Below are positions 16,513 through 48,004 of a stretch of DNA of 64,000 nucleotides, in pieces (within the stretch, counting starts at the first letter, position 1; every line of letters starts with the position of its first letter). The DNA comes from a virus. The position numbers and the translations under genes were made by a program. The notes under the pieces were generated by a model. It did not search any database. It saw only the letters and a list, made by a program, of their open reading frames with translations, and was not told the DNA's origin. The stretch spans positions 22,505-86,504 of IMG/VR virus record IMGVR_UViG_3300050138_000176; one strand, given 5' to 3'.

Positions 16513-17187
16513 ATGAAGCAGGAAACGAAACGTACCAAGCACGTATTCTCACCCGACGAAAAAGCCGACCTCAACGTCAAGTTCCGTCAGGCGTGGAAGC
16601 AAGTCACAGTGATAGAAGCGGAGTTCGACTCCGTGAAGTCCTCGTACAAGGCCCGGACCGCTGAAGCCGAGGCCGTGGCCGCAAACCTAGACGCGCTGCT
16701 GGACGCCGGGTTCCAGTTGCAGGAGACCGAGTGCGTGGTCGTCTATCGCCCGGACAAGCGCGAGAAGGACTACTACGCGGCCGCCAGCCTGGTTGATGGC
16801 GCGGTGCCGAAGGACGCAGTTCCGTTGCTCACCGAGAAGATGGATGATGCGGACATGCAGGCCGAGTTGTTCGAGGCCGAGGCGGCGTTTGAACTCAAAG
16901 ACACCATCGCGCTGTTCCAGCCGACGGACAAGGATGCCGGGGTGCTGGTGGTGGGAAGATTCAAGGATCGCTGGTACGGCGCCCTGCGGGCCAAGGTTGG
17001 AACGAAGGAGATTAAGGAACGGCTTGACGGGGAAGCCAAAGGCTTCAAGAAGCGGGCCGACTGCGTGTCGGCGAGCGGCAAGCGGTTCCTGGAGTTCGTG
17101 AAGGCCAACATCGGGAAGGACGCATCGAACGGCTTTGCCGCATTCATCGACTCCATGAATCAGGCCCACAAGGAACGCGAGGAGTGA
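16513..17187 (+). CDS. Hypothetical protein
   Basis: 224 aa ORF with RBS. Confidence 0.6.
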   Translation: MKQETKRTKHVFSPDEKADLNVKFRQAWKQVTVIEAEFDSVKSSYKARTAEAEAVAANLDALLDAGFQLQETECVVVYRPDKREKDYYAAASLVDGAVPKDAVPLLTEKMDDADMQAELFEAEAAFELKDTIALFQPTDKDAGVLVVGRFKDRWYGALRAKVGTKEIKERLDGEAKGFKKRADCVSASGKRFLEFVKANIGKDASNGFAAFIDSMNQAHKEREE

Positions 17188-17630
17188 TGAAACCTATCAC
17201 GCAGGCAATTATTGGAGTAGGCGCGATGACCTTCAGCATGGTATTATTGATTGTTACCATCTTCAACCAACGCGACCAACTGGCCGTCGCACACGACCAG
17301 CTAACCCAAGTCTGGACCAACACGGTCAGCTACCGCACCGGCTACGCGGACGGCTGGGTCGCGCTCTACATCGACACGAGCACCATCGAGCAGTTCCAGC
17401 GCATGGAGGACGCGAAGTTCGACGGCAAGCACCTGGTTTCTGGTAAGGAACTGGACGACCTATGGGCCGCGCTGCGGCAGCAGGCCGCCGGGTCGCAGGC
17501 CAGGTGGGATGCGCTGTTGCCGGACGCCAAGACCAACTACCAACCGGTCGTGCTCGGCCCGTACTGGCGGCGGGAGGCCAGGCCGCCGACCGGGCCGCCG
17601 GCGGCGGTCACGGTGACGACGAACAAGTAA
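17184..17630 (+). CDS. Membrane-anchored hypothetical protein
   Basis: N-terminal TM helix. Confidence 0.5.
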   Translation: MMKPITQAIIGVGAMTFSMVLLIVTIFNQRDQLAVAHDQLTQVWTNTVSYRTGYADGWVALYIDTSTIEQFQRMEDAKFDGKHLVSGKELDDLWAALRQQAAGSQARWDALLPDAKTNYQPVVLGPYWRREARPPTGPPAAVTVTTNK

Positions 17631-17960
17631 TCATTATGCACTATAAAAATGGACGGATAGTATCTGTAGGCGACTGGGTGGTTGGAATCAGCCACAACAG
17701 CGATAATAAAGTAGTGTGCGGCGTGGTGCTGGACATCAAAGGCAACTGCAACATCAAAATCCATCGGTGGCGCACCGAGCATTACACAGAGGAAGGCAAT
17801 CCGCGAACCGACCCGGTGGAAACCACGCGAGGCGTAAATGACTTTGGCGACTGCGCCAAGTTCATCCGAGTCGATGATGGTTTGAAGATGGTATCGGCTG
17901 TGGAGGGCCACGGCAAATGGGACGGGCCATACAATAGAATGGAATTATTCCAACACTAAA

Positions 17961-18593
17961 GTGAACCACGACCTCTACTCAATCCTCGGCCTGCCACGCG
18001 ACGCCACAGATGCCGACATCAAGAAGCAGTATCGGCGGCTTGCTGTCCTATACCACCCGGACGCCGTTCCTCACGCCACAGATTATGAGAAGGAGGAATC
18101 CGCCGCCAAGTTCCGGGAGGTGCAGGAATCCTACGACACGCTCGGCGACCCGGAAGCCAGGGCGCGCTATGACAAGGACGGCACGACCGGCGACGGCAGC
18201 CGGCTCCAGAAGGAAGCCTTGTCGAACGTGTGCGGCCTGGTGCTGGCGGTCGCGGAGACCGGCGGCGAGGGCTGCGACATCGTGGCGGCGGTCCGGCAGC
18301 AGGTCGCCAACGCGAAGACCATGGCGTTGAACGCGGCGGACACCGCAAGGAAAAAGGCCGCGCTGTTCCGGCGGCAGGCGGCCAGGATCACGCGCAAGGC
18401 TGGCGGCGAGAACGTGCTGTCCACGGCCATTGAAAATCAGGCGGACAAGATGGACGCGGCGGCCAGGGACTTCGAGGCCAGCGTGGCGATGCAGGACGCC
18501 ATGATGGGGCTGCTGGCGGACTACGAGTGCGCGGCTTCAACGCAAAATAAATATGTTGCGATTGGCGGACTCACTTACACATGGACGCGATGA
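17961..18593 (+). CDS. DnaJ (J-domain) protein
   Basis: DLYSILGL...IKKQYRRLA..YHPD...YDTLGD J-domain. Confidence 0.9.
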   Translation: MNHDLYSILGLPRDATDADIKKQYRRLAVLYHPDAVPHATDYEKEESAAKFREVQESYDTLGDPEARARYDKDGTTGDGSRLQKEALSNVCGLVLAVAETGGEGCDIVAAVRQQVANAKTMALNAADTARKKAALFRRQAARITRKAGGENVLSTAIENQADKMDAAARDFEASVAMQDAMMGLLADYECAASTQNKYVAIGGLTYTWTR

Positions 18594-18731
18594 CACCATG
18601 GCAGAAAATAAATCAGGTCTTTGAAGATGCCGAAAAGCTAAGGAAGCTGGAAGCGATATATATGGAGAGGGGTGATGTCACCTATGAACAGGCGCGGCAA
18701 TGGGCGCTTGAAAAGTGGAAAAATAAATCGG

Positions 18732-18781
18732 TTGACTCGGCGGCGGGTTCGGTGCAGGATAACAACATGACAACGACTATG
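18732..18781 (+). promoter_or_regulatory. Putative promoter and leader motif of the Cas7-like gene
   Basis: TTGACT-N17-CAGGAT, then ATGACAACGACTATG. Confidence 0.55.
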
Positions 18782-18795
18782 ACTAATAAATAACA

Positions 18796-19377
18796 ATGAA
18801 AATCCAAATTACATTCAGCGAAGAAGTGTTAGGGACGGCGTCTCAGAACCCGGAAATACACAGGGAGTTTATCGCAAGCAAATCTCCAGACGCAGCAACG
18901 GTGGAAGATGAAGTGGCGGCAATTGGAGCGGATGCTGTCGCCGATAAAATGATGACCGTATTCCCGCGTGACGGTGGAAAGCCGTTTGTTTACGACTACC
19001 AAATCAAAGGCTTCTTCAAGGATGCCTGCGCATCTCTGGCGCGGGTACCCGGCACTCAAAGCAATAAACTAAAAGCGTATAAAAAGGTGATCGATGGAAC
19101 CATCTTTATCTTTCCACGAAAAATCCATTTCGGCGGTGAGGTTAAGCTTGGAAATTGCCAAAGACCTCTGCGGGCCGAAACAGCTCAGGGGCCGCGTGTC
19201 GCGCTGGCAAACAGCGAGACATTGCCATCTGGTGCGACATTGGAATGCGAGATACGGTGCCTAGATGAAGGCATGGAGAAAGTGGTTAAGGAATGGTTGA
19301 ACTACGGAGCGTTGCGAGGTCTGGGACAGTGGCGGAATTCAGGCAAAGGCAGGTTCTCATGGAAGTTAATGGAATAA
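18796..19377 (+). CDS. Stand-alone Cas7/RAMP (Csm3-like) protein
   Basis: N-terminal beta strand, P.VYDYQIKGFFK motif, SETLPSG strand, C-terminal G-rich loop GLGQWRNSGKGRF. Confidence 0.75.
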   Translation: MKIQITFSEEVLGTASQNPEIHREFIASKSPDAATVEDEVAAIGADAVADKMMTVFPRDGGKPFVYDYQIKGFFKDACASLARVPGTQSNKLKAYKKVIDGTIFIFPRKIHFGGEVKLGNCQRPLRAETAQGPRVALANSETLPSGATLECEIRCLDEGMEKVVKEWLNYGALRGLGQWRNSGKGRFSWKLME

Positions 19378-19668
19378 GCAACGGCGTGGCAACACCGAGC
19401 ACAGCAATGATTAGTACAGCAAAGGCTACGCAAGGCCGCTCACCGTATAGCAATGGCACTGCACGGCGGATCAAGGCGCAGTAAAGCATAGGCATGGCAA
19501 CGCCGGGAACAGCGACGGCAGGGCAGGGTGTTGCAGAGCGCGGCCACGGCAAGGCGAGGCAAGGTGCAATAACGCATAGCAAAGGCATTGCGAGGCGCTG
19601 CCGCGAGTAGCAAAGGCTTGGCTCAGTGAGTCAACGCCAAGCATAGCAAAGGCAAAGCATAATAAGAT
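19377..19668 (+). ncRNA. Pentamer-periodic (NGY+NN) array in 8 modules; candidate guide-RNA array
   Basis: AGCAAAGGC-like boundaries at 19377, 19418, 19449, 19485, 19511, 19542, 19578, 19609, 19645 (spacings 41,31,36,26,31,36,31,36, all 5n+1); 36 of 44 internal pentamers begin NGY. Confidence 0.8.
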
Positions 19669-21399
19669 ATGACATCCGAAACCAAACTCGATCAGTGGCA
19701 GGAAGCAGCGGCGGCCAGCACCAGCGACATAATCTACGTGTGCGCCTGTCCTGGAAGTGGGAAAACTGCAACCACCGTAGAGCGTGTGCGAAGGATGCTG
19801 GCGCGTGGTGTCGCACCGGAAACCATCTGCTGCGTTACGTTCACTTGTGCGGGTGCTCTCGAAATGCAGAAGCGGCTCGGTGTCCGGCTCGGTCACTGCG
19901 GCACGCTTCACTCCCTCGCGCTCAAAATGCTGACCAAGCACCACAAACTTGCCGGGCTGCCGGCCCGCGTCACCGTTACCGACGAGCAGGAGGCGGCGGC
20001 GTCGCTGGCCGAGATCGTGACCATGCTGCGCTTTGATGGAAAGATTAGCGACAAGAAGCTGGCTGAGGCGGTCAAGTCGCAGCGGCACGCGATGGCGTTC
20101 GCCGGTGCCATCGAATCCTCGTCGCTGACCAAGGAAGGCGTGGTCGCCAAGGAATTCTTCCGACGGCAGCAGGAGGCTGGAGAATTGGACTACGACTCGG
20201 TGCTGGTCTATTTCCTGCGGCTGCTCAAGACTGGAGTGGAGCCGTGGCCGTTCAAGCACCTGCTCGTGGATGAGGCTCAGGACAACGCGGCGATTGACTG
20301 GGATATCTATGACCTGATGCCGGTCAAGACACGGTGGGCGGTGGGTGACATCGACCAATCCATCTATTCCTTCCGTGGAGCCAAGCCAGTAAGATTCCTG
20401 TCAAGAATAGGCGAGGCACAAAACAGCATCGCGTTCGGTCAAGCATTCCAACTGCCTACAAACTACAGATCGGGACGCGCCATCGTGACCGCCTCGCAAC
20501 GCCTCATTGCGCACAACACGGCCCGCGTTGCAATGACCGCGCAGCCGCGACCGGACGCCGGTGACGGCATGGTGCAGAGCAAGGAGTTCAATGCGCCGGT
20601 CGATGAACTATCGTGGGTCGCCAACGAGTTGTCCAAGCTGGCACCCGGCGACACGGCGGCGGTTCTGTGGCGCACGAATCGTCTCGCTGACCAGTGCCGA
20701 CAGCACTTCCAGAGCCTCGGCGTCAAGCTGGCGCAGCCGCTGGCGAGGGAGCCGAAGGAGGCCAGGGCGGCGCGGGCCGTTCTTAATTTCCTAGCCTCGC
20801 CTTGGAGTGATACGGCGGCGTTGCGGGCCGCGAAGGCGGTCGGACTGGACGCTTCAACGGTGCATTCGCAGTGCGACTTCCAAGGCCAGTCACCGTGCGT
20901 TCTGCTCAACGGCGGCATGGGTGCTTTTGACCGTGACGACGGAAACCCGGTCGCGTTTACAGTGGACGAATTCAAGGAGGCGCTCCGTGCCGTCCAAGTC
21001 CTGTCTGCTACCGGCACCGACGGCATCCGCGACGCGCTGCACAAGCTCGCGGCCTCGCTGCCGGAGCCGTTCACGCTCACCGACCTGATCTCGGCAGCGA
21101 ACAGCCGCGACGAGCCGGTCGCGGAGCAGGAAGGGATAATAATTTCTACCGCGCATTCTGCAAAAGGACGGGAATGGGATATTGTGATAATTTGTGGCAT
21201 GGAACAGGAAACATGGCCTGGCCGCAACGCCGCAGAAGATTTGGAAAGCGAACGGCGCTTGGCGTACGTGGCCACGACAAGGGCACGGAGCAGATTGGTT
21301 GTTACATGGTGCAAGCAGCGTCCCGCACCTGGACGCGCTTGGTTGATGCAGGATATGACACCGTCGCAATTTATTTCAGAACTTGGCTTGACCAAGTAA
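19669..21399 (+). CDS. UvrD/Rep-family SF1 helicase
   Basis: ACPGSGKT, VTFT, LVDEAQD, VGDIDQSIYSFRGA, NYRS, STAHSAKGREWD, ERRLAYVATTRAR. Confidence 0.95.
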   Translation: MTSETKLDQWQEAAAASTSDIIYVCACPGSGKTATTVERVRRMLARGVAPETICCVTFTCAGALEMQKRLGVRLGHCGTLHSLALKMLTKHHKLAGLPARVTVTDEQEAAASLAEIVTMLRFDGKISDKKLAEAVKSQRHAMAFAGAIESSSLTKEGVVAKEFFRRQQEAGELDYDSVLVYFLRLLKTGVEPWPFKHLLVDEAQDNAAIDWDIYDLMPVKTRWAVGDIDQSIYSFRGAKPVRFLSRIGEAQNSIAFGQAFQLPTNYRSGRAIVTASQRLIAHNTARVAMTAQPRPDAGDGMVQSKEFNAPVDELSWVANELSKLAPGDTAAVLWRTNRLADQCRQHFQSLGVKLAQPLAREPKEARAARAVLNFLASPWSDTAALRAAKAVGLDASTVHSQCDFQGQSPCVLLNGGMGAFDRDDGNPVAFTVDEFKEALRAVQVLSATGTDGIRDALHKLAASLPEPFTLTDLISAANSRDEPVAEQEGIIISTAHSAKGREWDIVIICGMEQETWPGRNAAEDLESERRLAYVATTRARSRLVVTWCKQRPAPGRAWLMQDMTPSQFISELGLTK

Positions 21400-21420
21400 C
21401 GCTTATGGGTTTTACTTATT

Positions 21421-21527
21421 GCCAGCGGATTAAGTCCCGTTTATGCAAACAAAACATCTTTGCTCCCGACGCCTTTTGGCGGCGACTCCCCGTCAGCCGC
21501 GGCTTAACTCTTGGCGGCGGGAGCTTT
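21421..21527 (+). promoter_or_regulatory. Structured leader with alternative pairings (attenuator-like)
   Basis: 21421-37 pairs with 21501-15, or 21462-73 pairs with 21513-24 (followed by TTT). Confidence 0.5.
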
Positions 21528-21536
21528 AGGATTAGC

Positions 21537-22046
21537 ATGGAAAACATTAACATAACCATTCAAAGACCACTCAATGCCAGAACCAAAAGCCATCCATTGT
21601 TCCAGACATATAAGAGTTGGAGGTCTATGCGAGACCGGTGTAACAATCCACGCATACCAGACTGGAAGCGTTATGGCGCAAGGGGGATTAAGGTTTGTGA
21701 GCATTGGTCTGTATTTCAAAACTTCCTAAACGACATGGGGATCAGGCCGGATGACACTTCCATCGACCGTATAAATAATGACGGAAACTACGAACCAGGA
21801 AACTGCCGGTGGGCATCAAGACAGGAGCAGGGAAATAATCGGCGAACCAACCGAATTGTGGAATACGGTGGGAAAAGGCTAACCATTTCTCAGTGGGCTG
21901 AATTAATTAAGATAGACTATGAGGCCCTGAGATATAGGCTAGACGCCGGCTGGTCAATTAAGGAAGCTTTGGAAACCCCATCCAGAAACGAGAGAACGAC
22001 CGATATTCACACGGTCATGGAACGCGAGCCGCAACTAGACTTATGA
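21537..22046 (+). CDS. HNH-type homing endonuclease
   Basis: WRSMRDRC...YGARGIKVC...SIDRINNDGNYEPGNCRWA; lower GC than flanks. Confidence 0.85.
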   Translation: MENINITIQRPLNARTKSHPLFQTYKSWRSMRDRCNNPRIPDWKRYGARGIKVCEHWSVFQNFLNDMGIRPDDTSIDRINNDGNYEPGNCRWASRQEQGNNRRTNRIVEYGGKRLTISQWAELIKIDYEALRYRLDAGWSIKEALETPSRNERTTDIHTVMEREPQLDL

Positions 22047-22206
22047 CCACTTTCCCCGCCGCGTCAGACCAATCCGAAGGCAGCGCAGTCATAATATGCC
22101 AGCCGGCTACAACCGGTCTCGCATTGAGTATCTGTGCGAATGTTCTTATTATTACGGGTCGGCCACGGGCCGCGAGCCGGCACCAGCGCGGCGGGGATTC
22201 TAATTT

Positions 22207-22635
22207 ATGAAAATCATAACCAAACACAGCGGCGCGGACTGGCTGCGGCTGCAAGGCATCAAGAACATCTCGCCGCTTGGCGAACAAGTAGCGGATCTGG
22301 TCGGCCACCTATTCAAAGGCATCTACCATATCAGCGACGAGGCGATGAAAGCGAACTGGGACAACCCGCAACACGTCAAGATATCAATAGCCTGCGAACT
22401 GGCGACCTGGGACTACAACAACCTGACCGAACTCGTGGTTCTGGCGCACGACGCCTGCCTCCGCGTCTCGGTGCGCCCGTACGGGCCGCGCAACCTGCTG
22501 CTCCTGTTTCACCAGCGGCAGCGGGAAGGCGGGTTCAGCGAGCGTCACCCGACGCTGGAGTCCCACGCGGCCATGCTGCGGGAGCACTACACGGTTGAAC
22601 CTGCCGAAGTCACCACTTTACCATTAAAGGAGTAA
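22207..22635 (+). CDS. Hypothetical phage protein
   Basis: LATWDYNNLTELVVLAHD motif. Confidence 0.6.
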   Translation: MKIITKHSGADWLRLQGIKNISPLGEQVADLVGHLFKGIYHISDEAMKANWDNPQHVKISIACELATWDYNNLTELVVLAHDACLRVSVRPYGPRNLLLLFHQRQREGGFSERHPTLESHAAMLREHYTVEPAEVTTLPLKE

Positions 22636-22638
22636 AAC

Positions 22639-23511
22639 ATGCCCAAGTCACCCAAGCCAAAGACCCGTCGCCGCGCCACAGTAGCCGCCGTTGCGCCGCC
22701 ACAGCCCGTTCCTGCGCGTAACCGCCGCAAGCCGCGTGTTGACGCCGCCCTGAACCGGGACGCGGTAGCCGAGGCTTGGCTGCTGGCCACACAGGAGGCC
22801 CACCCGATGCCAGTTTTCACGGCGTCACACCGCCAGCTAATTCGTGACGGCACCAAGACCCAGACTCGGCGTGTGGCAAGGCCGCAGCCGCCGCGCCACA
22901 ACCCGGAGCCGCCGCTGTTGCCGGAGCTGGCTACCTTGTGGCCGCCGCAACGGAGCGGACTGGCCTGTCCGTACGGGCGCAAGACCGGGCTGCATTACCT
23001 GCGGGAGCCATTGAAGAAGGTGGTCATCACGGACAAGTTCGGCAAGCGGCGGTCGGTTGCGGCCTACAGCGACGACGGCGAACTGGTGCTGGCTGGCGGG
23101 ATCGCCACGGTCAAGTGGACATGGAAGAACAAGTCGTTGCCAGCTATGTTCATGCCACGCTATGCCGCGAGAGTTTTTTGCACAGTAACCGGTCGCCGTG
23201 GCGAGTGGCTGCATGAAATAACCGATAAAGATGCAAAGGCAGAAGGCGTGCCACAAGGAGGCTACATAACGCACACATACGCGAACTACGAAGATATTCA
23301 GGAACAGCAGCCGGACGGCAGCATCCTGGTGACGCGTCGGGTTCTGCCGCCCAAACCGTTCAGTTACCGTGACAGCTACGCTACAATCTGGAACTCCATC
23401 AACGCGAAGCCACGCGGCAAGCGGCCAGGGTGGCCGTGGCAGGCGAATCCGTTTGTTTGGGTAATATCATGGACACTGGCGCGGCCACCGGCTACCGTAA
23501 CCAAGCCATGA
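22639..23511 (+). CDS. ASCH/PUA-like phage protein
   Basis: IRDGTKTQTRR...FMPRYAAR...ANPFVWVISW. Confidence 0.7.
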   Translation: MPKSPKPKTRRRATVAAVAPPQPVPARNRRKPRVDAALNRDAVAEAWLLATQEAHPMPVFTASHRQLIRDGTKTQTRRVARPQPPRHNPEPPLLPELATLWPPQRSGLACPYGRKTGLHYLREPLKKVVITDKFGKRRSVAAYSDDGELVLAGGIATVKWTWKNKSLPAMFMPRYAARVFCTVTGRRGEWLHEITDKDAKAEGVPQGGYITHTYANYEDIQEQQPDGSILVTRRVLPPKPFSYRDSYATIWNSINAKPRGKRPGWPWQANPFVWVISWTLARPPATVTKP

Positions 23512-23569: not shown

Positions 23570-24034
23570 ATGAACAACGAACACCCAAACGGAAACAAAC
23601 TTTTAGGAATGACCTTTGATAGATTGAAGGTTATTAAACGGATAGGAACAACCAAAGATCACCATGTGCTTTGGGAATGCCTTTGCAGATGCGGAACAAT
23701 TACCACGGCAGGAACAAACTCACTAAAGTCCAAACGAAAAAGATCATGCGGCTGTCTAAGATCGGAAGCGGCCAAGCGCCGAATAAAGAAAGATGGAGTC
23801 TGGAACGATGGCAAGAGTTACGCCATTCAAAACGGGGCCAGGTGCTACAAGACCAAACATGCGTGGTCAAAAGCGGTTATCCGACACTATGGCAATAAAT
23901 GTCAACTATGTGGATGGAATAAGGCTCGTTGTGATACGCATCATAAACACCCAAAAGCAAAAGGTGGACTCCACACGATAGCGAACGGTATGGTTTTGTG
24001 TCCTAATTGCCATAGAGTGGAGGAAGCAAAATGA
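23570..24034 (+). CDS. HNH endonuclease
   Basis: WECLCRCG...SCGC; CQLCG...HH...N..VLCPNCH. Confidence 0.85.
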   Translation: MNNEHPNGNKLLGMTFDRLKVIKRIGTTKDHHVLWECLCRCGTITTAGTNSLKSKRKRSCGCLRSEAAKRRIKKDGVWNDGKSYAIQNGARCYKTKHAWSKAVIRHYGNKCQLCGWNKARCDTHHKHPKAKGGLHTIANGMVLCPNCHRVEEAK

Positions 24035-25569
24035 GGTTTCTATCTTTGTTCAGCGGCATAGAAGCAGCGAGTGTAGCCTTCCTGCCGCTCGGTTGGGAAT
24101 GCGTGGCCGTAGCAGAAATTGAAAAGTTTCCGTGCGCCGTGCTCAAGCACCATTATCCAGGAGTTAAGAACTTGGGCGATGTTACAAAGATAACCAAGGA
24201 ACAAATCGAAGCACTGGGGCACATTGACGTGTGCATCTTTGGTTTTCCATGCACAGACTTATCGGTGGCCGGTCAACGAAAAGGATTAAAACATGCAGAT
24301 GGAACTCTTACAAGAAGCGGACTGTTCTTCCCGGCGGCACGAATCGCGGACTGGAGCCGGGCCAGATGGACAGTCGCAGAAAATGTCCCTGGCCTGTTCA
24401 GCATCGATGAAGGACGCGCCTTTGCTACAGTGGTTGGAGAGCTGGCTGGGAACCGCGTTGACGTTCCAAGAGACGGCTGGCGAAATTCCGGTTGTGTGCT
24501 TGGGCCAAAAGGACTTATCGAGTTCACCGTCCTGGACGCGCAATTTTTTGGCCTTGCGCAGCGCCGGCAGCGTGTGTTCATTGTCAGAGATACTGGAAAC
24601 TGGGCTGATAGACCGCCGCTTTTATTTGAGTCCAAAAGCCTGCTCTGGAATTATCCGCCGCGCCGGTCGCCGGGGCAAGGAGCTGTCGGCGGCGTTGCGC
24701 CGAGCATTGGAGCAAGTGGCCGGGGCACAGCCAGGGCCGGGGAGTCCAGAGGACAAGACTGCGTGATCCCCATCAACATGCAGGCTGCCGCGAAGAACGG
24801 CGCCAAGTCGCCGAACGCGCTCGTTGTCGGGCAGCCTGGCGACCCGGCGCACACGGTGAACGCGAGTGACCAACATGCGGTCGCGGTGCCGGAAGCTAAT
24901 GTTGTCGCGCACTCGCTGACCGGTGAAGGCTTCGATGCCAGTGAGGACGGCACAGGTCGCGGCACGCCGCTAATACCGGAGATTGCTGGCACCATGATGT
25001 CGTGCAATGACAGCGGCGGATTTAGTAACAGCGCGGATCATGCGGCGGCAGGCTACATGGTGCCGGAACTGTCGCCGTCACTGCCCGCTGGCGGCAACAA
25101 AACAGGCGGCGACCGGCCACCAGGAACCGACGTGGACACATCCACCTCATTGATACCAGAAATAGTCAGTCAAGCCATGTCAGCCAAGTGGAGCAAGGGG
25201 AGCAGCGGGCCGGCCGGCGACGAGGTCTGCAACCTGGTGCCGGTTTCCGGTGACGCGCCAGTTCAAGTGCAATGGGCCAGCGGCGGCGGCAAGACGGAGA
25301 ATCCAACCATGCAGGCGTTGCGGTCTGGCGCGGAACACAGTTACCAATTTTTAAGAACGGGGATGGCGGTAAGAAGATTATTGCCGGTGGAATGTGAGCG
25401 CCTGATGGGCTTCCCTGACAGATATACAGAGATACCTTGGAACGGTAAACCAGCATCGGAGTGTCCTGACGGAAATCGATATAAAAGTTTGGGTAACAGC
25501 ATGGCGGTCCCAATTATTTCGTGGCTGGGGCAGCGAATCCAAATGGTGATTAACCTGCCTAAAAAATGA
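24031..25569 (+). CDS. C5-cytosine DNA methyltransferase with long variable region
   Basis: LFSGIE, GFPCTD, ENVPG, QRRQRVF, ERLMGFP, YKSLGNS. Confidence 0.95.
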   Translation: MRFLSLFSGIEAASVAFLPLGWECVAVAEIEKFPCAVLKHHYPGVKNLGDVTKITKEQIEALGHIDVCIFGFPCTDLSVAGQRKGLKHADGTLTRSGLFFPAARIADWSRARWTVAENVPGLFSIDEGRAFATVVGELAGNRVDVPRDGWRNSGCVLGPKGLIEFTVLDAQFFGLAQRRQRVFIVRDTGNWADRPPLLFESKSLLWNYPPRRSPGQGAVGGVAPSIGASGRGTARAGESRGQDCVIPINMQAAAKNGAKSPNALVVGQPGDPAHTVNASDQHAVAVPEANVVAHSLTGEGFDASEDGTGRGTPLIPEIAGTMMSCNDSGGFSNSADHAAAGYMVPELSPSLPAGGNKTGGDRPPGTDVDTSTSLIPEIVSQAMSAKWSKGSSGPAGDEVCNLVPVSGDAPVQVQWASGGGKTENPTMQALRSGAEHSYQFLRTGMAVRRLLPVECERLMGFPDRYTEIPWNGKPASECPDGNRYKSLGNSMAVPIISWLGQRIQMVINLPKK

Positions 25570-45777: not shown

Positions 45778-46380
45778 GTGACTGGAACGCTCCATCAAAG
45801 TCAGTTGCTGCCACAGGATAACAAATTCCATGTCGGCAACAGCTCTGATGGCAAGCACTACTGGCTGACACCGGAGAAGTTGTACTCCGATCTTGATGCA
45901 GAGTTTCATTTCAACTTTGACCCGTGCCCGCACCCGGTTCCGAAAGGCTTTGACGGCCTGACGTGCGAGTGGGGAACCAGCAACTACGTGAATCCTCCAT
46001 TCGGATCCATTATGCACAACGGCAAAAAGAAAGGCCCGACCGCATGGATGCGAAAGGCCATTGAACAACAGGGCAAAGGAAGGTTATCGGTCGTCGTTTA
46101 CCCGGTGGACAAATGGGTGCTGATGATGCTGGCTGCAACCGGGGCACCGAACATTCGCAATCTTGGCGACGTGAAATGGTGCGCTACTGAGGACGGTTCG
46201 GAAGGCAAAGGCACGGGACGCCACATTGCCGCGTTCATTTTATATCCAAAAATAGTCGTTGAAAAGATAACGGAAACTGGTATCGTTGAAACAGTAAGCG
46301 GCGGCACACCTCTGCCGCAGCGGCACACCTCTGCCGCAGCGGTAAACGACTACGACTATGAACGACAACCAGAACTTTAA
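45778..46380 (+). CDS. Phage Dam-like N6-adenine methyltransferase
   Basis: WLTP, FDPCP, DGL..EW, YVNPPF. Confidence 0.8.
   Translation: MTGTLHQSQLLPQDNKFHVGNSSDGKHYWLTPEKLYSDLDAEFHFNFDPCPHPVPKGFDGLTCEWGTSNYVNPPFGSIMHNGKKKGPTAWMRKAIEQQGKGRLSVVVYPVDKWVLMMLAATGAPNIRNLGDVKWCATEDGSEGKGTGRHIAAFILYPKIVVEKITETGIVETVSGGTPLPQRHTSAAAVNDYDYERQPEL
46301..46342 (+). repeat. Exact 19 bp tandem duplication, each copy a hairpin
   Basis: GCGGCACACCTCTGCCGCA twice, then GCGG. Confidence 0.9.
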
Positions 46381-46669
46381 AGTCACCGACCGCCTCCGCG
46401 CCCGCGACATGGCCGCGTACCGGCTGCTGTGCTCCGAGGTCGCCGCCGCTCAATATGATGGCAAGCCACACGCGCATCTCACCAAGAGCCTGATAGAAAT
46501 AAATGACAGATACGGCGGTAAACCGCCGCAACCGCTCCCGGCACCGCCACTGGCCCAGTGGCCCGGCGCCGGGTGGCGGGAGCTGGCGCAGGAGCGGGCG
46601 GAGGCGGGTGACGAGTTCGTTTGGGACACCGTGAAGCAGGCGTACCGTGGCCGCAGGAAGATAGCATGA
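46358..46669 (+). CDS. Hypothetical protein
   Basis: ATG lies within the GACTACGACTATG motif. Confidence 0.55.
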   Translation: MNDNQNFKVTDRLRARDMAAYRLLCSEVAAAQYDGKPHAHLTKSLIEINDRYGGKPPQPLPAPPLAQWPGAGWRELAQERAEAGDEFVWDTVKQAYRGRRKIA

Positions 46670-46753
46670 ATCTAACTTGCCCAAAATGCAACCGTGTCCT
46701 GCCGCCGATGCGCTGCTGATTCTTGACTACGCAATCACTATAACCCCAATACC

Positions 46754-47071
46754 ATGAAACTCACACTAATCCTCCTAACCTGCCTCGCGCTTTCGGGGTG
46801 TTCAAAACAGCCAAAACAAGTGCAGCGTATTTATCAAACAAACTACGTGAAATCACAAATTGTTTTTTACACAGGAAGTCCACCGCCTAAACTTTATCAG
46901 GTGGTCAGCAATGGAGACGCCTACGCCTTGCTAAAGCCAGACGGCACACTCACAGACCAAGACGAGACGAAAGATAAATTGATCGAACGCATGGAGTATC
47001 TGAACTGCTCCACAATTCCGGGCTACTGGACAAACAAATGGACAATCTGCGAACCACCCACAAACCACTGA
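46754..47071 (+). CDS. Lipoprotein (AT-rich gene)
   Basis: Signal ending in lipobox LSGC. Confidence 0.65.
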   Translation: MKLTLILLTCLALSGCSKQPKQVQRIYQTNYVKSQIVFYTGSPPPKLYQVVSNGDAYALLKPDGTLTDQDETKDKLIERMEYLNCSTIPGYWTNKWTICEPPTNH

Positions 47072-47074
47072 TAT

Positions 47075-47911
47075 ATGAGCACTTTTAAAAGTATAAATGA
47101 GATTCAAGAGATGATTGACGGCGGACAACTTCGAGGAATAGACCAACAACTGTTAAATCACATTAAACAACTCACCGTCGATGTCGAGAAGTTGAAGGAG
47201 GCGAAAGGAATGTTCCCACCCGAAAGCGAACAAGCCATCAAATGGAACGCTTGGATGCTCGATTTAATCGCAAGAGGCAAAACAGTCGCGTCAAAGGTTT
47301 CCAACGAACATGCCCAAGTCATTCTTGACCTTGTTCGTGAACTGGACAACGAGCGTTGTGTGATGACTCACAAGGCTAATCTTTTCGCGGTTAAACATGA
47401 CAGCAAACAGCTACGCGACCAGTTGCAGAGGTTGCATGATGAAACACACGCCTATCTCGGAATAGACCGTTTCAGAATTGAGCAGAATCCAGTTCGTAAA
47501 CAACTCCACTCTTCTCGCAACCTACTGGCGGGAGTGGAGAAGGGGGAGGCTAACTCCGTGCCGCTGAACAAACTAGCAGATTATTATGCAATGGAAGCCC
47601 AACTCCAAGCTTCCAAACATTTGAGCGAGAGCAGGAGAAAAATATTGAACCATTTGCATACTTATTTACAGACAGAACTACCAGTCTGGCTCTCATCAGA
47701 GCTACTGCACCAAGTATATGTTCTTGCACAAGAATCTACCCCTCAACCACCAGATGCAGAGAGTTCACTGTCCAATTCTTTGCAAGACCGCGTGGCGAAG
47801 GCTTTGGTGTTGTTGAATTCACACTGTGACCACCACTCTGGCGACTGTCCTTGTGGAGCGTGTGCAAGCAAAACTATCCTCTCCGGCGACGAGAAAGAAG
47901 GTGTGGTGTGA
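47075..47911 (+). CDS. Coiled-coil hypothetical protein (AT-rich gene)
   Basis: 278 aa ORF; low GC relative to genome. Confidence 0.6.
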   Translation: MSTFKSINEIQEMIDGGQLRGIDQQLLNHIKQLTVDVEKLKEAKGMFPPESEQAIKWNAWMLDLIARGKTVASKVSNEHAQVILDLVRELDNERCVMTHKANLFAVKHDSKQLRDQLQRLHDETHAYLGIDRFRIEQNPVRKQLHSSRNLLAGVEKGEANSVPLNKLADYYAMEAQLQASKHLSESRRKILNHLHTYLQTELPVWLSSELLHQVYVLAQESTPQPPDAESSLSNSLQDRVAKALVLLNSHCDHHSGDCPCGACASKTILSGDEKEGVV

Positions 47912-47951
47912 GTGATGATTTATTCTGCGCGATTTGCCGCCGGAAAATCAT

Positions 47952-48004
47952 TTGACATCTACTCCGTGATAACCTACCTTCCATCCAGTTATGACAGCGA
48001 CTAC
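47952..48004 (+). promoter_or_regulatory. Putative promoter and degenerate leader motif
   Basis: TTGACA-N17-TACCTT; GTTATGACAGCGACTAC. Confidence 0.55.

What the first reader, a model, noticed from the sequence alone, without database searches (positions are those of the whole stretch)
19383..19653. Decodable NN strings of the eight array modules, with related modules
Seen, NN read 5'->3' including the boundary pair: M1 GT-AA-CG-AC-AA-TT-AC-AA; M2 TA-AA-CG-AC-AT-AA; M3 AC-AC-GG-AA-GC-AA-AT; M4 AT-AA-CG-AC-GA; M5 AG-AG-GT-AG-GC-CA; M6 AA-GA-AA-GC-AA-AT-AA; M7 AT-GA-GC-CG-GT-AA; M8 TT-TC-GA-AA-CA-AT-AA. M1, M2 and M4 share AA-CG-AC although the intervening triplets differ; M3 and M6 share AA-GC-AA-AT. 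Inference: NN staying constant while triplets drift suggests the dinucleotides carry selected information. Read without gaps, M2 gives TAAACGAC, which also occurs in this phage's leader motif at 46343; this may be chance.
Basis: partly seen in the sequence, partly recalled or inferred. Interest (0 to 1): 0.75.

Follow-up and report, generated by a model that had tools for sequence, protein, structure and literature searches.

The report
Phage VIPR guide-RNA array, decoded

Summary
All eight NN strings reproduce exactly. An objective parse gives 19378-19661 as G-Y-N-N-N pentamers in eight head-to-tail modules of 8,6,7,5,6,7,6,7 units, each opening with GGC. It is the strongest period-5 signal in the window and in the 86.5-kb phage genome.

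The upstream 193-aa gene folds as a lone Cas7/Csm3-type RAMP. In 153 of 159 related loci the same kind of array lies beside it on the same strand.

This matches VIPR systems: a Vipr RAMP plus pentamer vrRNAs whose NN pairs read DNA with a 1-nt skip (bioRxiv 10.64898/2026.04.26.720920 and .720927). It resembles the 'YNNNG' repeat and 'staggered array' variants named there.

Its own argument is weak. The AA-CG-AC sharing is nominally significant here (P about 0.01-0.02) but does not generalise. TAAACGAC is chance.

No target enrichment appeared at any spacing in the own genome, in 1.5 Mb of related loci or in IMG/VR.

This scan has met VIPR-type arrays on other DNA many times.

Verdict: a new member of a known kind.

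The parts
18796..19377 (+). vipr-like gene: 193-aa stand-alone RAMP (Cas7/Csm3-like fold) with a C-terminal glycine-rich loop
   Evidence: ORF and translation. No Pfam or PHROG hit. AF2 model pLDDT 82, pTM 0.74. Foldseek top hits are type VII Cas7 and type III Csm3/Cmr4, E about 1e-6, TM about 0.55. Weak collinear hhalign to phiSUSP1 Vipr.
19378..19661 (+). whole pentamer array (candidate vrRNA array); it starts at the first base after the stop codon
   Evidence: Parse score 126 against 18 elsewhere in the genome. In the 52 units of the eight modules, G at unit position 1 in 47 of 52 and a pyrimidine at position 2 in 49 of 52.
19378..19382 (+). lone leading unit before the first module
19383..19423 (+). 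M1, 41 nt, 8 units, NN GT-AA-CG-AC-AA-TT-AC-AA
19424..19454 (+). M2, 31 nt, 6 units, NN TA-AA-CG-AC-AT-AA
19455..19490 (+). M3, 36 nt, 7 units, NN AC-AC-GG-AA-GC-AA-AT
19491..19516 (+). M4, 26 nt, 5 units, NN AT-AA-CG-AC-GA
19517..19547 (+). M5, 31 nt, 6 units, NN AG-AG-GT-AG-GC-CA
19548..19583 (+). M6, 36 nt, 7 units, NN AA-GA-AA-GC-AA-AT-AA
19584..19614 (+). M7, 31 nt, 6 units, NN AT-GA-GC-CG-GT-AA
19615..19650 (+). M8, 36 nt, 7 units, NN TT-TC-GA-AA-CA-AT-AA
19651..19661 (+). trailing 2-unit remnant, 7 nt before the helicase start codon
19669..21399 (+). UvrD-type SF1 helicase: a neighbour here, not a conserved partner of the system
   Evidence: Pfam PF00580 and PF13361. No homologue within the flanks of any of 160 related loci.

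Best explanation
This is a VIPR-type locus of a tailed phage. The 193-aa RAMP (Vipr-like) gene and the array directly behind it are transcribed together. Protomers of the protein are expected to polymerise along the RNA, one per pentamer. The exposed dinucleotides would pair with a DNA strand that is read two bases on, one base skipped, so the complex binds and silences a matching gene of a competing mobile element.

This clade differs from the studied type II systems in three ways. Only one G of the GGY scaffold is kept inside modules. The guides are short head-to-tail modules of 5-8 units (26-41 nt), each opening with a canonical GGC and mostly closing with GCAA-type units. There is no conserved 3' tail and no conserved accessory gene.

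Shown here: the fold, the array anatomy and the gene-array linkage. Inferred from the preprints: RNA binding, the NN code, the 1-nt skip and silencing. Unknown: where the RNA is cut and what it targets.
For: 1. Fold. AF2 model pLDDT 82, pTM 0.74. Foldseek top hits are type VII Cas7 (9j9e, 8yhd) and type III Csm3/Cmr4, E 6e-7 to 1e-5, TM about 0.55. A profile search of PDB sequences hits Csm4 and type VII Cas7 at the C-terminal G-loop (E about 0.02).

2. Link to a validated Vipr. phiSUSP1 Vipr (L081:28474-29061, minus strand) is flanked by GGY-NN repeats. It aligns collinearly with the family profile: 169 columns, 27% identity, E 0.0029. The C-terminal 37 residues are 43% identical (E 6e-4). 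Shared segments include G-x4-A-C in helix 1 and G-x-G-x-W-R in the G-loop.

3. Residue logic. In SUSP1, W178 and R179 read G2 and Y3, while H17 and D177 read G1. In this family the aligned W179 and R180 are invariant, while H17 and D177 align with T14 and Q178. This fits an array that keeps G2 (47 of 52) and Y3 (49 of 52) but not G1.

4. Array. It is the unique period-5 signal of the genome, and all eight modules and the remnant start with GGC.

5. Linkage.
- In 80 of 80 IMG/VR loci the strongest period-5 window lies just 3' of the homologous gene.
- Over 159 loci, 147 have a strong array downstream, 6 have one immediately upstream on the same strand, and 6 have only weak ones.
- The array starts 0-2 nt after the stop codon in 68 of 81 loci.
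- Arrays keep their G/A-rich makeup in genomes of 40-60% GC.

6. Module statistics. Of 1,437 unique internal modules, 448 have 6 units, 281 have 5, 211 have 7 and 91 have 8. The extra base is G in 1,297.

7. Context. The record is a phage: portal, large terminase and DnaB-like helicase. There are no CRISPR-like repeats nearby.

8. Literature. The VIPR papers describe exactly this combination, and name YNNNG-type units and 'staggered' arrays whose vrRNAs abut. No self-targeting was seen here, as in the papers.
Against: - Sequence homology to the validated Vipr is weak (hhalign probability 10.6%). tblastn of this protein against 50,697 phage records did not reach phiSUSP1.
- No RNA data: no RNA holder was listed. 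The strand rests on orientation and G-specific scaffold only. The terminator-like hairpins I saw by eye after the arrays of L001 and L003 were not called by the scan tool.
- No natural target, and no advantage of the 1-nt skip:
  - Own genome: 0 perfect hits at skips 0-3, and best partial matches equal shuffles.
  - 1.52 Mb of related loci, 250 modules: 50 perfect hits at skip 1 against 38, 49 and 34 at skips 0, 2 and 3.
  - Positions 3-5 read as triplets: 0-1 hits.
  - IMG/VR, M1: 14 stretches at skip 1 against 21, 20 and 36 at skips 0, 2 and 3, and 24 for an order-reversed control. The 14 are scattered and do not attract M2-M8.
  - vipr genes as targets: real hits do not exceed shuffled hits.
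- Guides of 5-8 units carry only 10-16 informative bases, fewer than the 9-16 units of type II, so unique targeting is doubtful.
- Near-identical modules differ about equally at positions 2-5, so NN is neither hypervariable nor specially conserved at short range.
- No conserved accessory (vap) gene was found.
Confidence: 0.8

Rival explanations
1. It is a VIPR-family ribonucleoprotein but with a different rule or role from type II. For example, another skip length or three paired bases per unit. Or the unprocessed array is coated as one long filament, with modules acting cooperatively. Or it binds in cis to regulate the gene that follows.
For: No enrichment for the 1-nt skip was seen anywhere. 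Modules carry only 10-16 informative bases. The G1 contacts are replaced. The array ends 7 nt before the next start codon here. In several relatives it appears, by eye, to run into the ribosome-binding site of the next gene.
Against: Triplet reading of positions 3-5 gave 0-1 hits, and no other skip stood out. The downstream gene differs between loci, which argues against a dedicated cis-regulatory role. The G2/Y3-reading residues, and hence the geometry, look conserved.
Confidence: 0.14
2. It is an RNA decoy or anti-CRISPR. A phage Cas7 mimic plus a pseudo-crRNA would poison the host's type III or type VII CRISPR complexes.
For: The closest solved folds are Csm3 and type VII Cas7. Phages are known to carry RNA anti-CRISPRs (recalled; also mentioned in the Discussion read).
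Against: The periodicity is 5 nt, not the 6 nt of Cas7 backbones. There is no CRISPR-repeat-like sequence. The family keeps 50-76% identity in phages of very different hosts, which is unlike mimics tied to one host system. It also aligns with Vipr at the residues that read the pentamer.
Confidence: 0.03
3. It is a double-stranded DNA element, such as an origin or a phased protein-binding array for the adjacent helicase. Units of (5n+1)/n = 5.13-5.2 bp would track half a helical turn.
For: The mean unit length of 5.13-5.2 nt doubles to about 10.3-10.4, near the DNA helical repeat (my arithmetic). A helicase gene follows directly.
Against: The array is tied to the RAMP gene, not to a helicase: 0 of 160 loci have a UvrD homologue in the flanks. 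It has a fixed strand relative to the gene, and the best minus-strand scores are low. The scaffold is a strand-specific G, with T only 11%.
Confidence: 0.02
4. It is a chance or compositional pattern in a GC-rich spacer.
For: Tandem Repeats Finder, Rfam and folding see nothing.
Against: The period-5 score lies about 6.8 sd above the window mean (my arithmetic). The parse score is 126 against 18 elsewhere. The same array type stands beside the gene in 153 of 159 loci.
Confidence: 0.01

Closest known systems
VIPR systems with non-canonical (YNNNG-type) units and 'staggered' vrRNA arrays, as named in bioRxiv 10.64898/2026.04.26.720920 (methods on type classification; legend of fig. S18)
   Same: A lone small RAMP gene in a phage. 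Beside it, an array of 5-nt units with a fixed G and pyrimidine and variable dinucleotides. Modules abut so that the end of one marks the start of the next (5n+1 spacing here).
   Different: I could not see the figures or the tables, so I cannot say which of the seven types this clade belongs to, or whether it is in their set of 2,664 proteins. The paper says the staggered type was not among those confirmed by small-RNA sequencing. No accessory gene is conserved here.
Type II VIPR of Escherichia phage phiSUSP1 (KT454805.2) and the Pseudomonas fulva prophage: Vipr, vap1 and GGY-NN vrRNAs
   Same: Protein size (195 against 193 aa). The same order of N-terminal strand, G-x4-A-C helix and C-terminal G-x-G-x-W-R-...-G-R-F loop. 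Pentamer RNA arrays beside the gene. No self-targeting.
   Different: - SUSP1 has 9-16 GGY-NN units per roughly 100-nt vrRNA, with an invariable pseudoknotted 3' tail; here there are 5-8 units, no tail, and only G-Y is fixed.
- SUSP1 has vap1; here there is none.
- The G1-reading H17 and D177 align with T14 and Q178.
- Sequence similarity is marginal (E 0.003, probability 10.6%).
Cas7-family backbone subunits of type III (Csm3, Cmr4) and type VII CRISPR-Cas effectors
   Same: The RRM core, thumb hairpin and glycine-rich loop fold. These are the best structural matches.
   Different: There is no CRISPR array, no other cas genes and no second RRM. RNA periodicity is 5 nt, not 6 nt. The gene is phage-borne and solitary.
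TRAP (MtrB) binding sites: (G/U)AG triplets separated by 2-3 nt (recalled, not from a call)
   Same: A triplet-plus-two-base rhythm in an RNA that is read by a protein oligomer, one subunit per unit.
   Different: The protein here is a RAMP, not a TRAP-type beta-sandwich ring. In TRAP sites the spacers carry no information.

Membership tests
VIPR (Vipr + vrRNA) | Small (about 20 kDa) stand-alone RAMP with RRM core, thumb and glycine-rich loop | tested here: met
   193 aa. AF2 pLDDT 82 with a beta-hairpin at 119-143 and a C-terminal G-loop. Foldseek hits to Cas7/Csm3 at E about 1e-6.
VIPR (Vipr + vrRNA) | Sequence or profile homology to an experimentally validated Vipr (phiSUSP1) | tested here: inconclusive
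   hhalign gives 169 collinear columns, 27% identity, E 0.0029, but probability 10.6%. BLASTP gives 43% identity over 37 C-terminal residues, E 6e-4 for the pair. tblastn against phages did not reach phiSUSP1.
VIPR (Vipr + vrRNA) | Adjacent non-coding array of tandem pentanucleotide units with a fixed scaffold and variable dinucleotides, on the gene's strand | tested here: met
   Conserved next to the gene in 153 of 159 loci.
VIPR (Vipr + vrRNA) | Canonical GGY scaffold in every unit | tested here: not met
   Only the second G (47 of 52) and the pyrimidine (49 of 52) are kept. The position of the first G is near-uniform: 0.03 bits over 81 arrays. A full GGC occurs at each module start. The discovery paper accepts YNNNG-type units as VIPR.
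VIPR (Vipr + vrRNA) | Type II vrRNA architecture: 9-16 units followed by a conserved structured 3' tail | tested here: not met
   Modules have 5-8 units and no tail. The family mode is 6 units. No fold is better than shuffles. It fits the 'staggered' architecture instead.
VIPR (Vipr + vrRNA) | Non-CRISPR, mostly viral context | tested here: met
   Portal, large terminase and DnaB in the window. No CRISPR-like repeats at 17000-23000. Cas genes were not searched over the whole genome.
VIPR (Vipr + vrRNA) | Accessory gene (vap) next to vipr | tested here: not met
   Homologues of this phage's neighbours within the flanks of 160 loci: DnaJ-domain ORF 0, 70-aa ORF 0, UvrD 0, HNH 3. I did not cluster the neighbours of the other loci among themselves.
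VIPR (Vipr + vrRNA) | vrRNA is expressed and bound by Vipr | not testable with these tools
   No RNA holder listed.
VIPR (Vipr + vrRNA) | NN strings match natural targets with a 1-nt skip better than with other spacings or shuffles | tested here: inconclusive
   No enrichment in the own genome, in 1.52 Mb of related loci, in 95 kb of vipr genes or in IMG/VR exact scans. The host and its mobile elements are unknown, and exact scans miss imperfect matches.
CRISPR-Cas type III / VII | CRISPR repeat-spacer array and further cas genes beside the Cas7 | tested here: not met
   No direct repeats of CRISPR type. The neighbours are a DnaJ-domain ORF, UvrD and HNH.

The most novel reading that the evidence does not exclude
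This very large clade is a distinct working mode of VIPR. It has at least 2,033 clusters at 50% identity. Its guides are one-turn mini-guides of about 6 units, strung head to tail. Each is nucleated at a canonical GGC and closed by GCAA-type units, with no tail and no accessory protein. Each guide has too little information for unique sites. Specificity would therefore come from several guides acting on one conserved peptide-coding motif and its variants. M1, M2 and M4 share AA-CG-AC at units 2-4, which reads x-[K/N]-R-T-x as codons. An alternative is that specificity comes from the uncut array acting as a single multi-segment filament.
Probability: 0.2. Interest if true: 0.55.

Novelty: new member of a known kind. 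Interest (0 to 1): 0.3.

Why it matters
VIPR is a newly described way to read DNA with RNA, and is proposed to be older than CRISPR. This locus adds an example from an uncultured 86.5-kb phage. More usefully, it points to a very abundant, highly conserved clade with 2,033 representative clusters. The discovery paper reports 2,664 unique proteins of all types from NCBI NR.

The guides of this clade are much shorter than those studied so far. They keep only G-Y of the scaffold. If the short modules are the working guides, the family bears on how little information a gapped guide needs. The residue swaps at the G1 pocket give a testable link between protein sequence and repeat consensus.

For the scan itself, the result is a calibration.

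Tried and rejected
- Tandem Repeats Finder, Rfam and single-strand folding of either strand gave nothing. The array is not a classical repeat or a structured RNA.
- megablast of the locus against phage records: no match.
- Pfam and PHROGs on the RAMP protein: no family.
- A DNA-level reading (helical phasing, origin next to the helicase) was considered. I dropped it because the helicase is not conserved beside the array and the array is strand-specific.
- A TRAP-like reading was considered before the fold result and dropped.
- Terminator-like hairpins seen by eye after the arrays of L001 and L003 were not called by the scan tool. I do not use them as evidence.
- Target searches all came back at background:
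  - own genome;
  - related loci at four registers and four spacings, where the only excesses were GC-at-codon-period artefacts in the control register of positions 1-2;
  - triplet reading;
  - vipr genes;
  - IMG/VR scans of M1 at four spacings plus one control;
  - a 9-unit gut-phage module;
  - convergence of the other modules on M1-hit contigs.
- The apparent excess of shared NN strings within arrays (z 4.3) vanished when the semi-constant first, penultimate and last units were excluded.
- The look-up of sequencing runs: no RNA holder listed.
- I did not decode the guides into peptide motifs against protein databases. Earlier notes of this scan that did so were later marked as partly fallen.
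They may already contain this clade and its type.

Papers seen:
- 10.64898/2026.04.26.720920: Results, Discussion, part 1 of Methods, Methods sections 26 and 27, and passages.
- 10.64898/2026.04.26.720927: outline and sections 5 and 6.
- 10.64898/2026.10.15.759431: outline, section 17 and Discussion.
- 10.64898/2026.10.21.760802: passages only.

Full report
**What is there.**
The finding lies in a 291-nt non-coding stretch (19378-19668). It sits between a 193-aa ORF (18796-19377, +) and a UvrD-type helicase gene (19669-21399, +). A DnaJ-domain ORF lies upstream and an HNH endonuclease gene downstream. The window belongs to an 86,504-bp single-contig phage genome that encodes a portal protein, a large terminase and a DnaB-like helicase.

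Tandem Repeats Finder, Rfam and folding of either strand see nothing special. Base autocorrelation does. It peaks at lags 5, 10, 15 and 20, and then at 21, 26, 31 and 36.

**Check of the observation.**
I learned a pentamer matrix from 81 arrays and parsed the region by dynamic programming, allowing 1-nt skips.
- The result is a lone unit, then eight modules of one extra G plus 8, 6, 7, 5, 6, 7, 6 and 7 pentamers (41, 31, 36, 26, 31, 36, 31 and 36 nt; 19383-19650), then a 2-unit remnant.
- Of the 52 units, 47 have G at position 1 and 49 have a pyrimidine at position 2. Every module begins GGC.
- The array is by far the strongest period-5 signal of the window: score 0.45 against a mean of -0.01 and sd 0.067.
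- It is also the strongest of the genome: parse score 126 against 18 elsewhere on either strand.

**The gene in front.**
The 193-aa protein has no Pfam or PHROG family but belongs to a very large, highly conserved family.
- 7,747 of 8,000 scored candidates match at E <= 1e-3, and the best 120 are 64-76% identical.
- A profile search finds 2,033 representatives at 50% clustering with E <= 1e-3.
Most of the latter are gut and rumen Clostridia contigs, but Bacteroidota, Coriobacteriia and Megasphaera also occur.
- An AlphaFold model built from 36 sequences (pLDDT 82, pTM 0.74) matches Cas7-family subunits best. The top hits are type VII Cas7 (9j9e, 8yhd) and type III Csm3/Cmr4, with E 6e-7 to 1e-5 and TM about 0.55.

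So it is a solitary RAMP protein.

**The gene and the array belong together.**
- In 80 of 80 IMG/VR loci the top period-5 window lies just 3' of the homologous gene.
- Over 159 loci with a recognisable gene end, 147 have a strong array downstream. Six more have one immediately upstream on the same strand. Six have only weak ones.
- The array starts 0-2 nt after the stop codon in 68 of 81 loci.
- The arrays are 124-875 nt long in that set.
- They differ in sequence even between close relatives, yet keep the same G/A-rich flavour in genomes of 40-60% GC.
- Of 1,437 unique internal modules, 448 have 6 units, 281 have 5, 211 have 7 and 91 have 8. The extra base is G in 1,297.
- In the 81-array set, the last unit is GCAA-type (C 96%, A 75%, A 89%) and the first is GCA-type.
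- None of this phage's neighbouring genes is a conserved partner. UvrD, the DnaJ-domain ORF and the 70-aa ORF have 0 homologues in the flanks of 160 loci, and HNH has 3.

**What it is.**
A literature search led to the 2026 preprints on VIPR systems. They describe phage-encoded lone RAMP proteins (Vipr, about 20 kDa) with vrRNAs made of tandem GGY-NN pentamers. The NN dinucleotides pair with DNA in which every third base is skipped. The systems repress competing satellites and prophages.

The structural paper shows one protomer per unit. G1 is read by H17 and D177, G2 by R138 and W178, and Y3 by a pocket that includes R179. N4 and N5 are exposed for pairing. The discovery paper also names alternative units (NNNGG, YNNNG, NNNNG) and 'staggered' arrays in which one vrRNA ends where the next begins. 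A language-model survey reports 99 period-5 clusters, 21 of them with non-canonical units.

I fetched phiSUSP1 and located its Vipr, whose residue numbers match the paper, together with its GGY-NN arrays. The family profile aligns with it end to end, but weakly: 169 columns, 27% identity, E 0.0029, probability 10.6%. The C-terminal 37 residues are 43% identical.

In that alignment the Trp-Arg that reads G2 and Y3 is invariant in this family (W179, R180). The two G1 readers align with T14 and Q178. This fits the array, which keeps G2 and Y3 but not G1 except at module starts.

- In this array, three modules sharing a 3-NN string has P 0.012-0.018 under NN shuffles. A pair sharing 4 NN has P 0.04-0.05.
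- In the M1/M2/M4 core, all six variable sites lie outside NN (P 0.0055 with family-wide rates; post hoc).
- The effect does not generalise. In 98 dereplicated arrays an apparent excess (125 against 81.7, z 4.3) disappears once the semi-constant first, penultimate and last units are left out. The z-scores fall to 0.1 and 1.7, and control registers are as high.
- Between 192 near-identical module pairs, changes per site at positions 1-5 are 0.019, 0.058, 0.049, 0.065 and 0.082. Only the G is constrained.
- TAAACGAC occurs 3 times against 1.16 expected, and 12 of 100 shuffles reach 3. It is chance, and it uses the ungapped reading that the papers reject.

- Own genome with the array masked: no perfect hit for any module at skips 0-3, and best partial matches equal shuffles. 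This agrees with the papers' finding of no self-targeting.
- Related loci (1.52 Mb, arrays masked, 250 modules of 6-9 units): 50 perfect hits at skip 1 against 38, 49 and 34 at skips 0, 2 and 3.
- Reading three bases per unit: 0-1 hits.
- vipr genes as targets: real hits do not exceed shuffled hits at any skip.
- IMG/VR, exact scans of M1 (16 informative bases): 21, 14, 20 and 36 stretches at skips 0, 1, 2 and 3, and 24 for an order-reversed control. The 14 hits are scattered over unrelated contigs and do not attract the other modules.
- A 9-unit gut-phage module: 4 stretches.

So no target is known and the 1-nt rule is untested for this clade. Power was low, because the guides carry 10-16 informative bases and exact scans miss imperfect matches.

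**Verdict.**
The object is a VIPR-family locus of the variant with G-Y-only units and abutting short modules. The NN strings are most likely guide letters, but this rests on homology to published systems, not on target hits. The class is in print, and this scan has noted VIPR-type arrays in at least 434 genomes. It is therefore a new member of a known kind.

What remains open is whether 26-41-nt modules are the working guides, how so little information gives specificity, and what they aim at.

Noticed in passing
window 24031-25569: Homologues of this C5 methyltransferase-sized ORF occur in 20 of 160 related loci, at a median of about 3 kb downstream of the vipr stop codon and on the same strand. 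No other neighbour recurs as often.
   Followed up: partly
L093, L103, L113, L114, L119, L153: In these six loci the strong pentamer array lies immediately upstream of the vipr homologue, on the same strand, instead of downstream.
   Followed up: partly
L072/L075/L080, L034, L077 (arrays after the vipr gene): An orthologous 9-unit module differs between related gut phages only in the first base of its fourth NN (AC, GC, TC). Read as codons these would be Thr, Ala and Ser. An IMG/VR scan with that base left open gave only 4 stretches.
   Followed up: partly
159 vipr genes of the loci (95.4 kb): At the 1-nt skip, real guides gave fewer perfect hits in vipr genes (30) than order-shuffled guides (54). 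This could mean avoidance of the family's own gene. It rests on a single shuffle, and the hits are not independent.
   Followed up: no
window 46093-46100 (-) and 46343-46350 (+): Two of the three TAAACGAC copies lie 250 nt apart in opposite orientation, in the lowest-GC part of the window (GC 0.506 at 46001-48000).
   Followed up: no
L003 4967-4995: A near-consensus sigma-70-like site (11 of 12 matches) stands shortly after the end of the array. It suggests a separate transcription unit for the next genes in that phage.
   Followed up: no
I listed the ORF but did not test the call.
   Followed up: no
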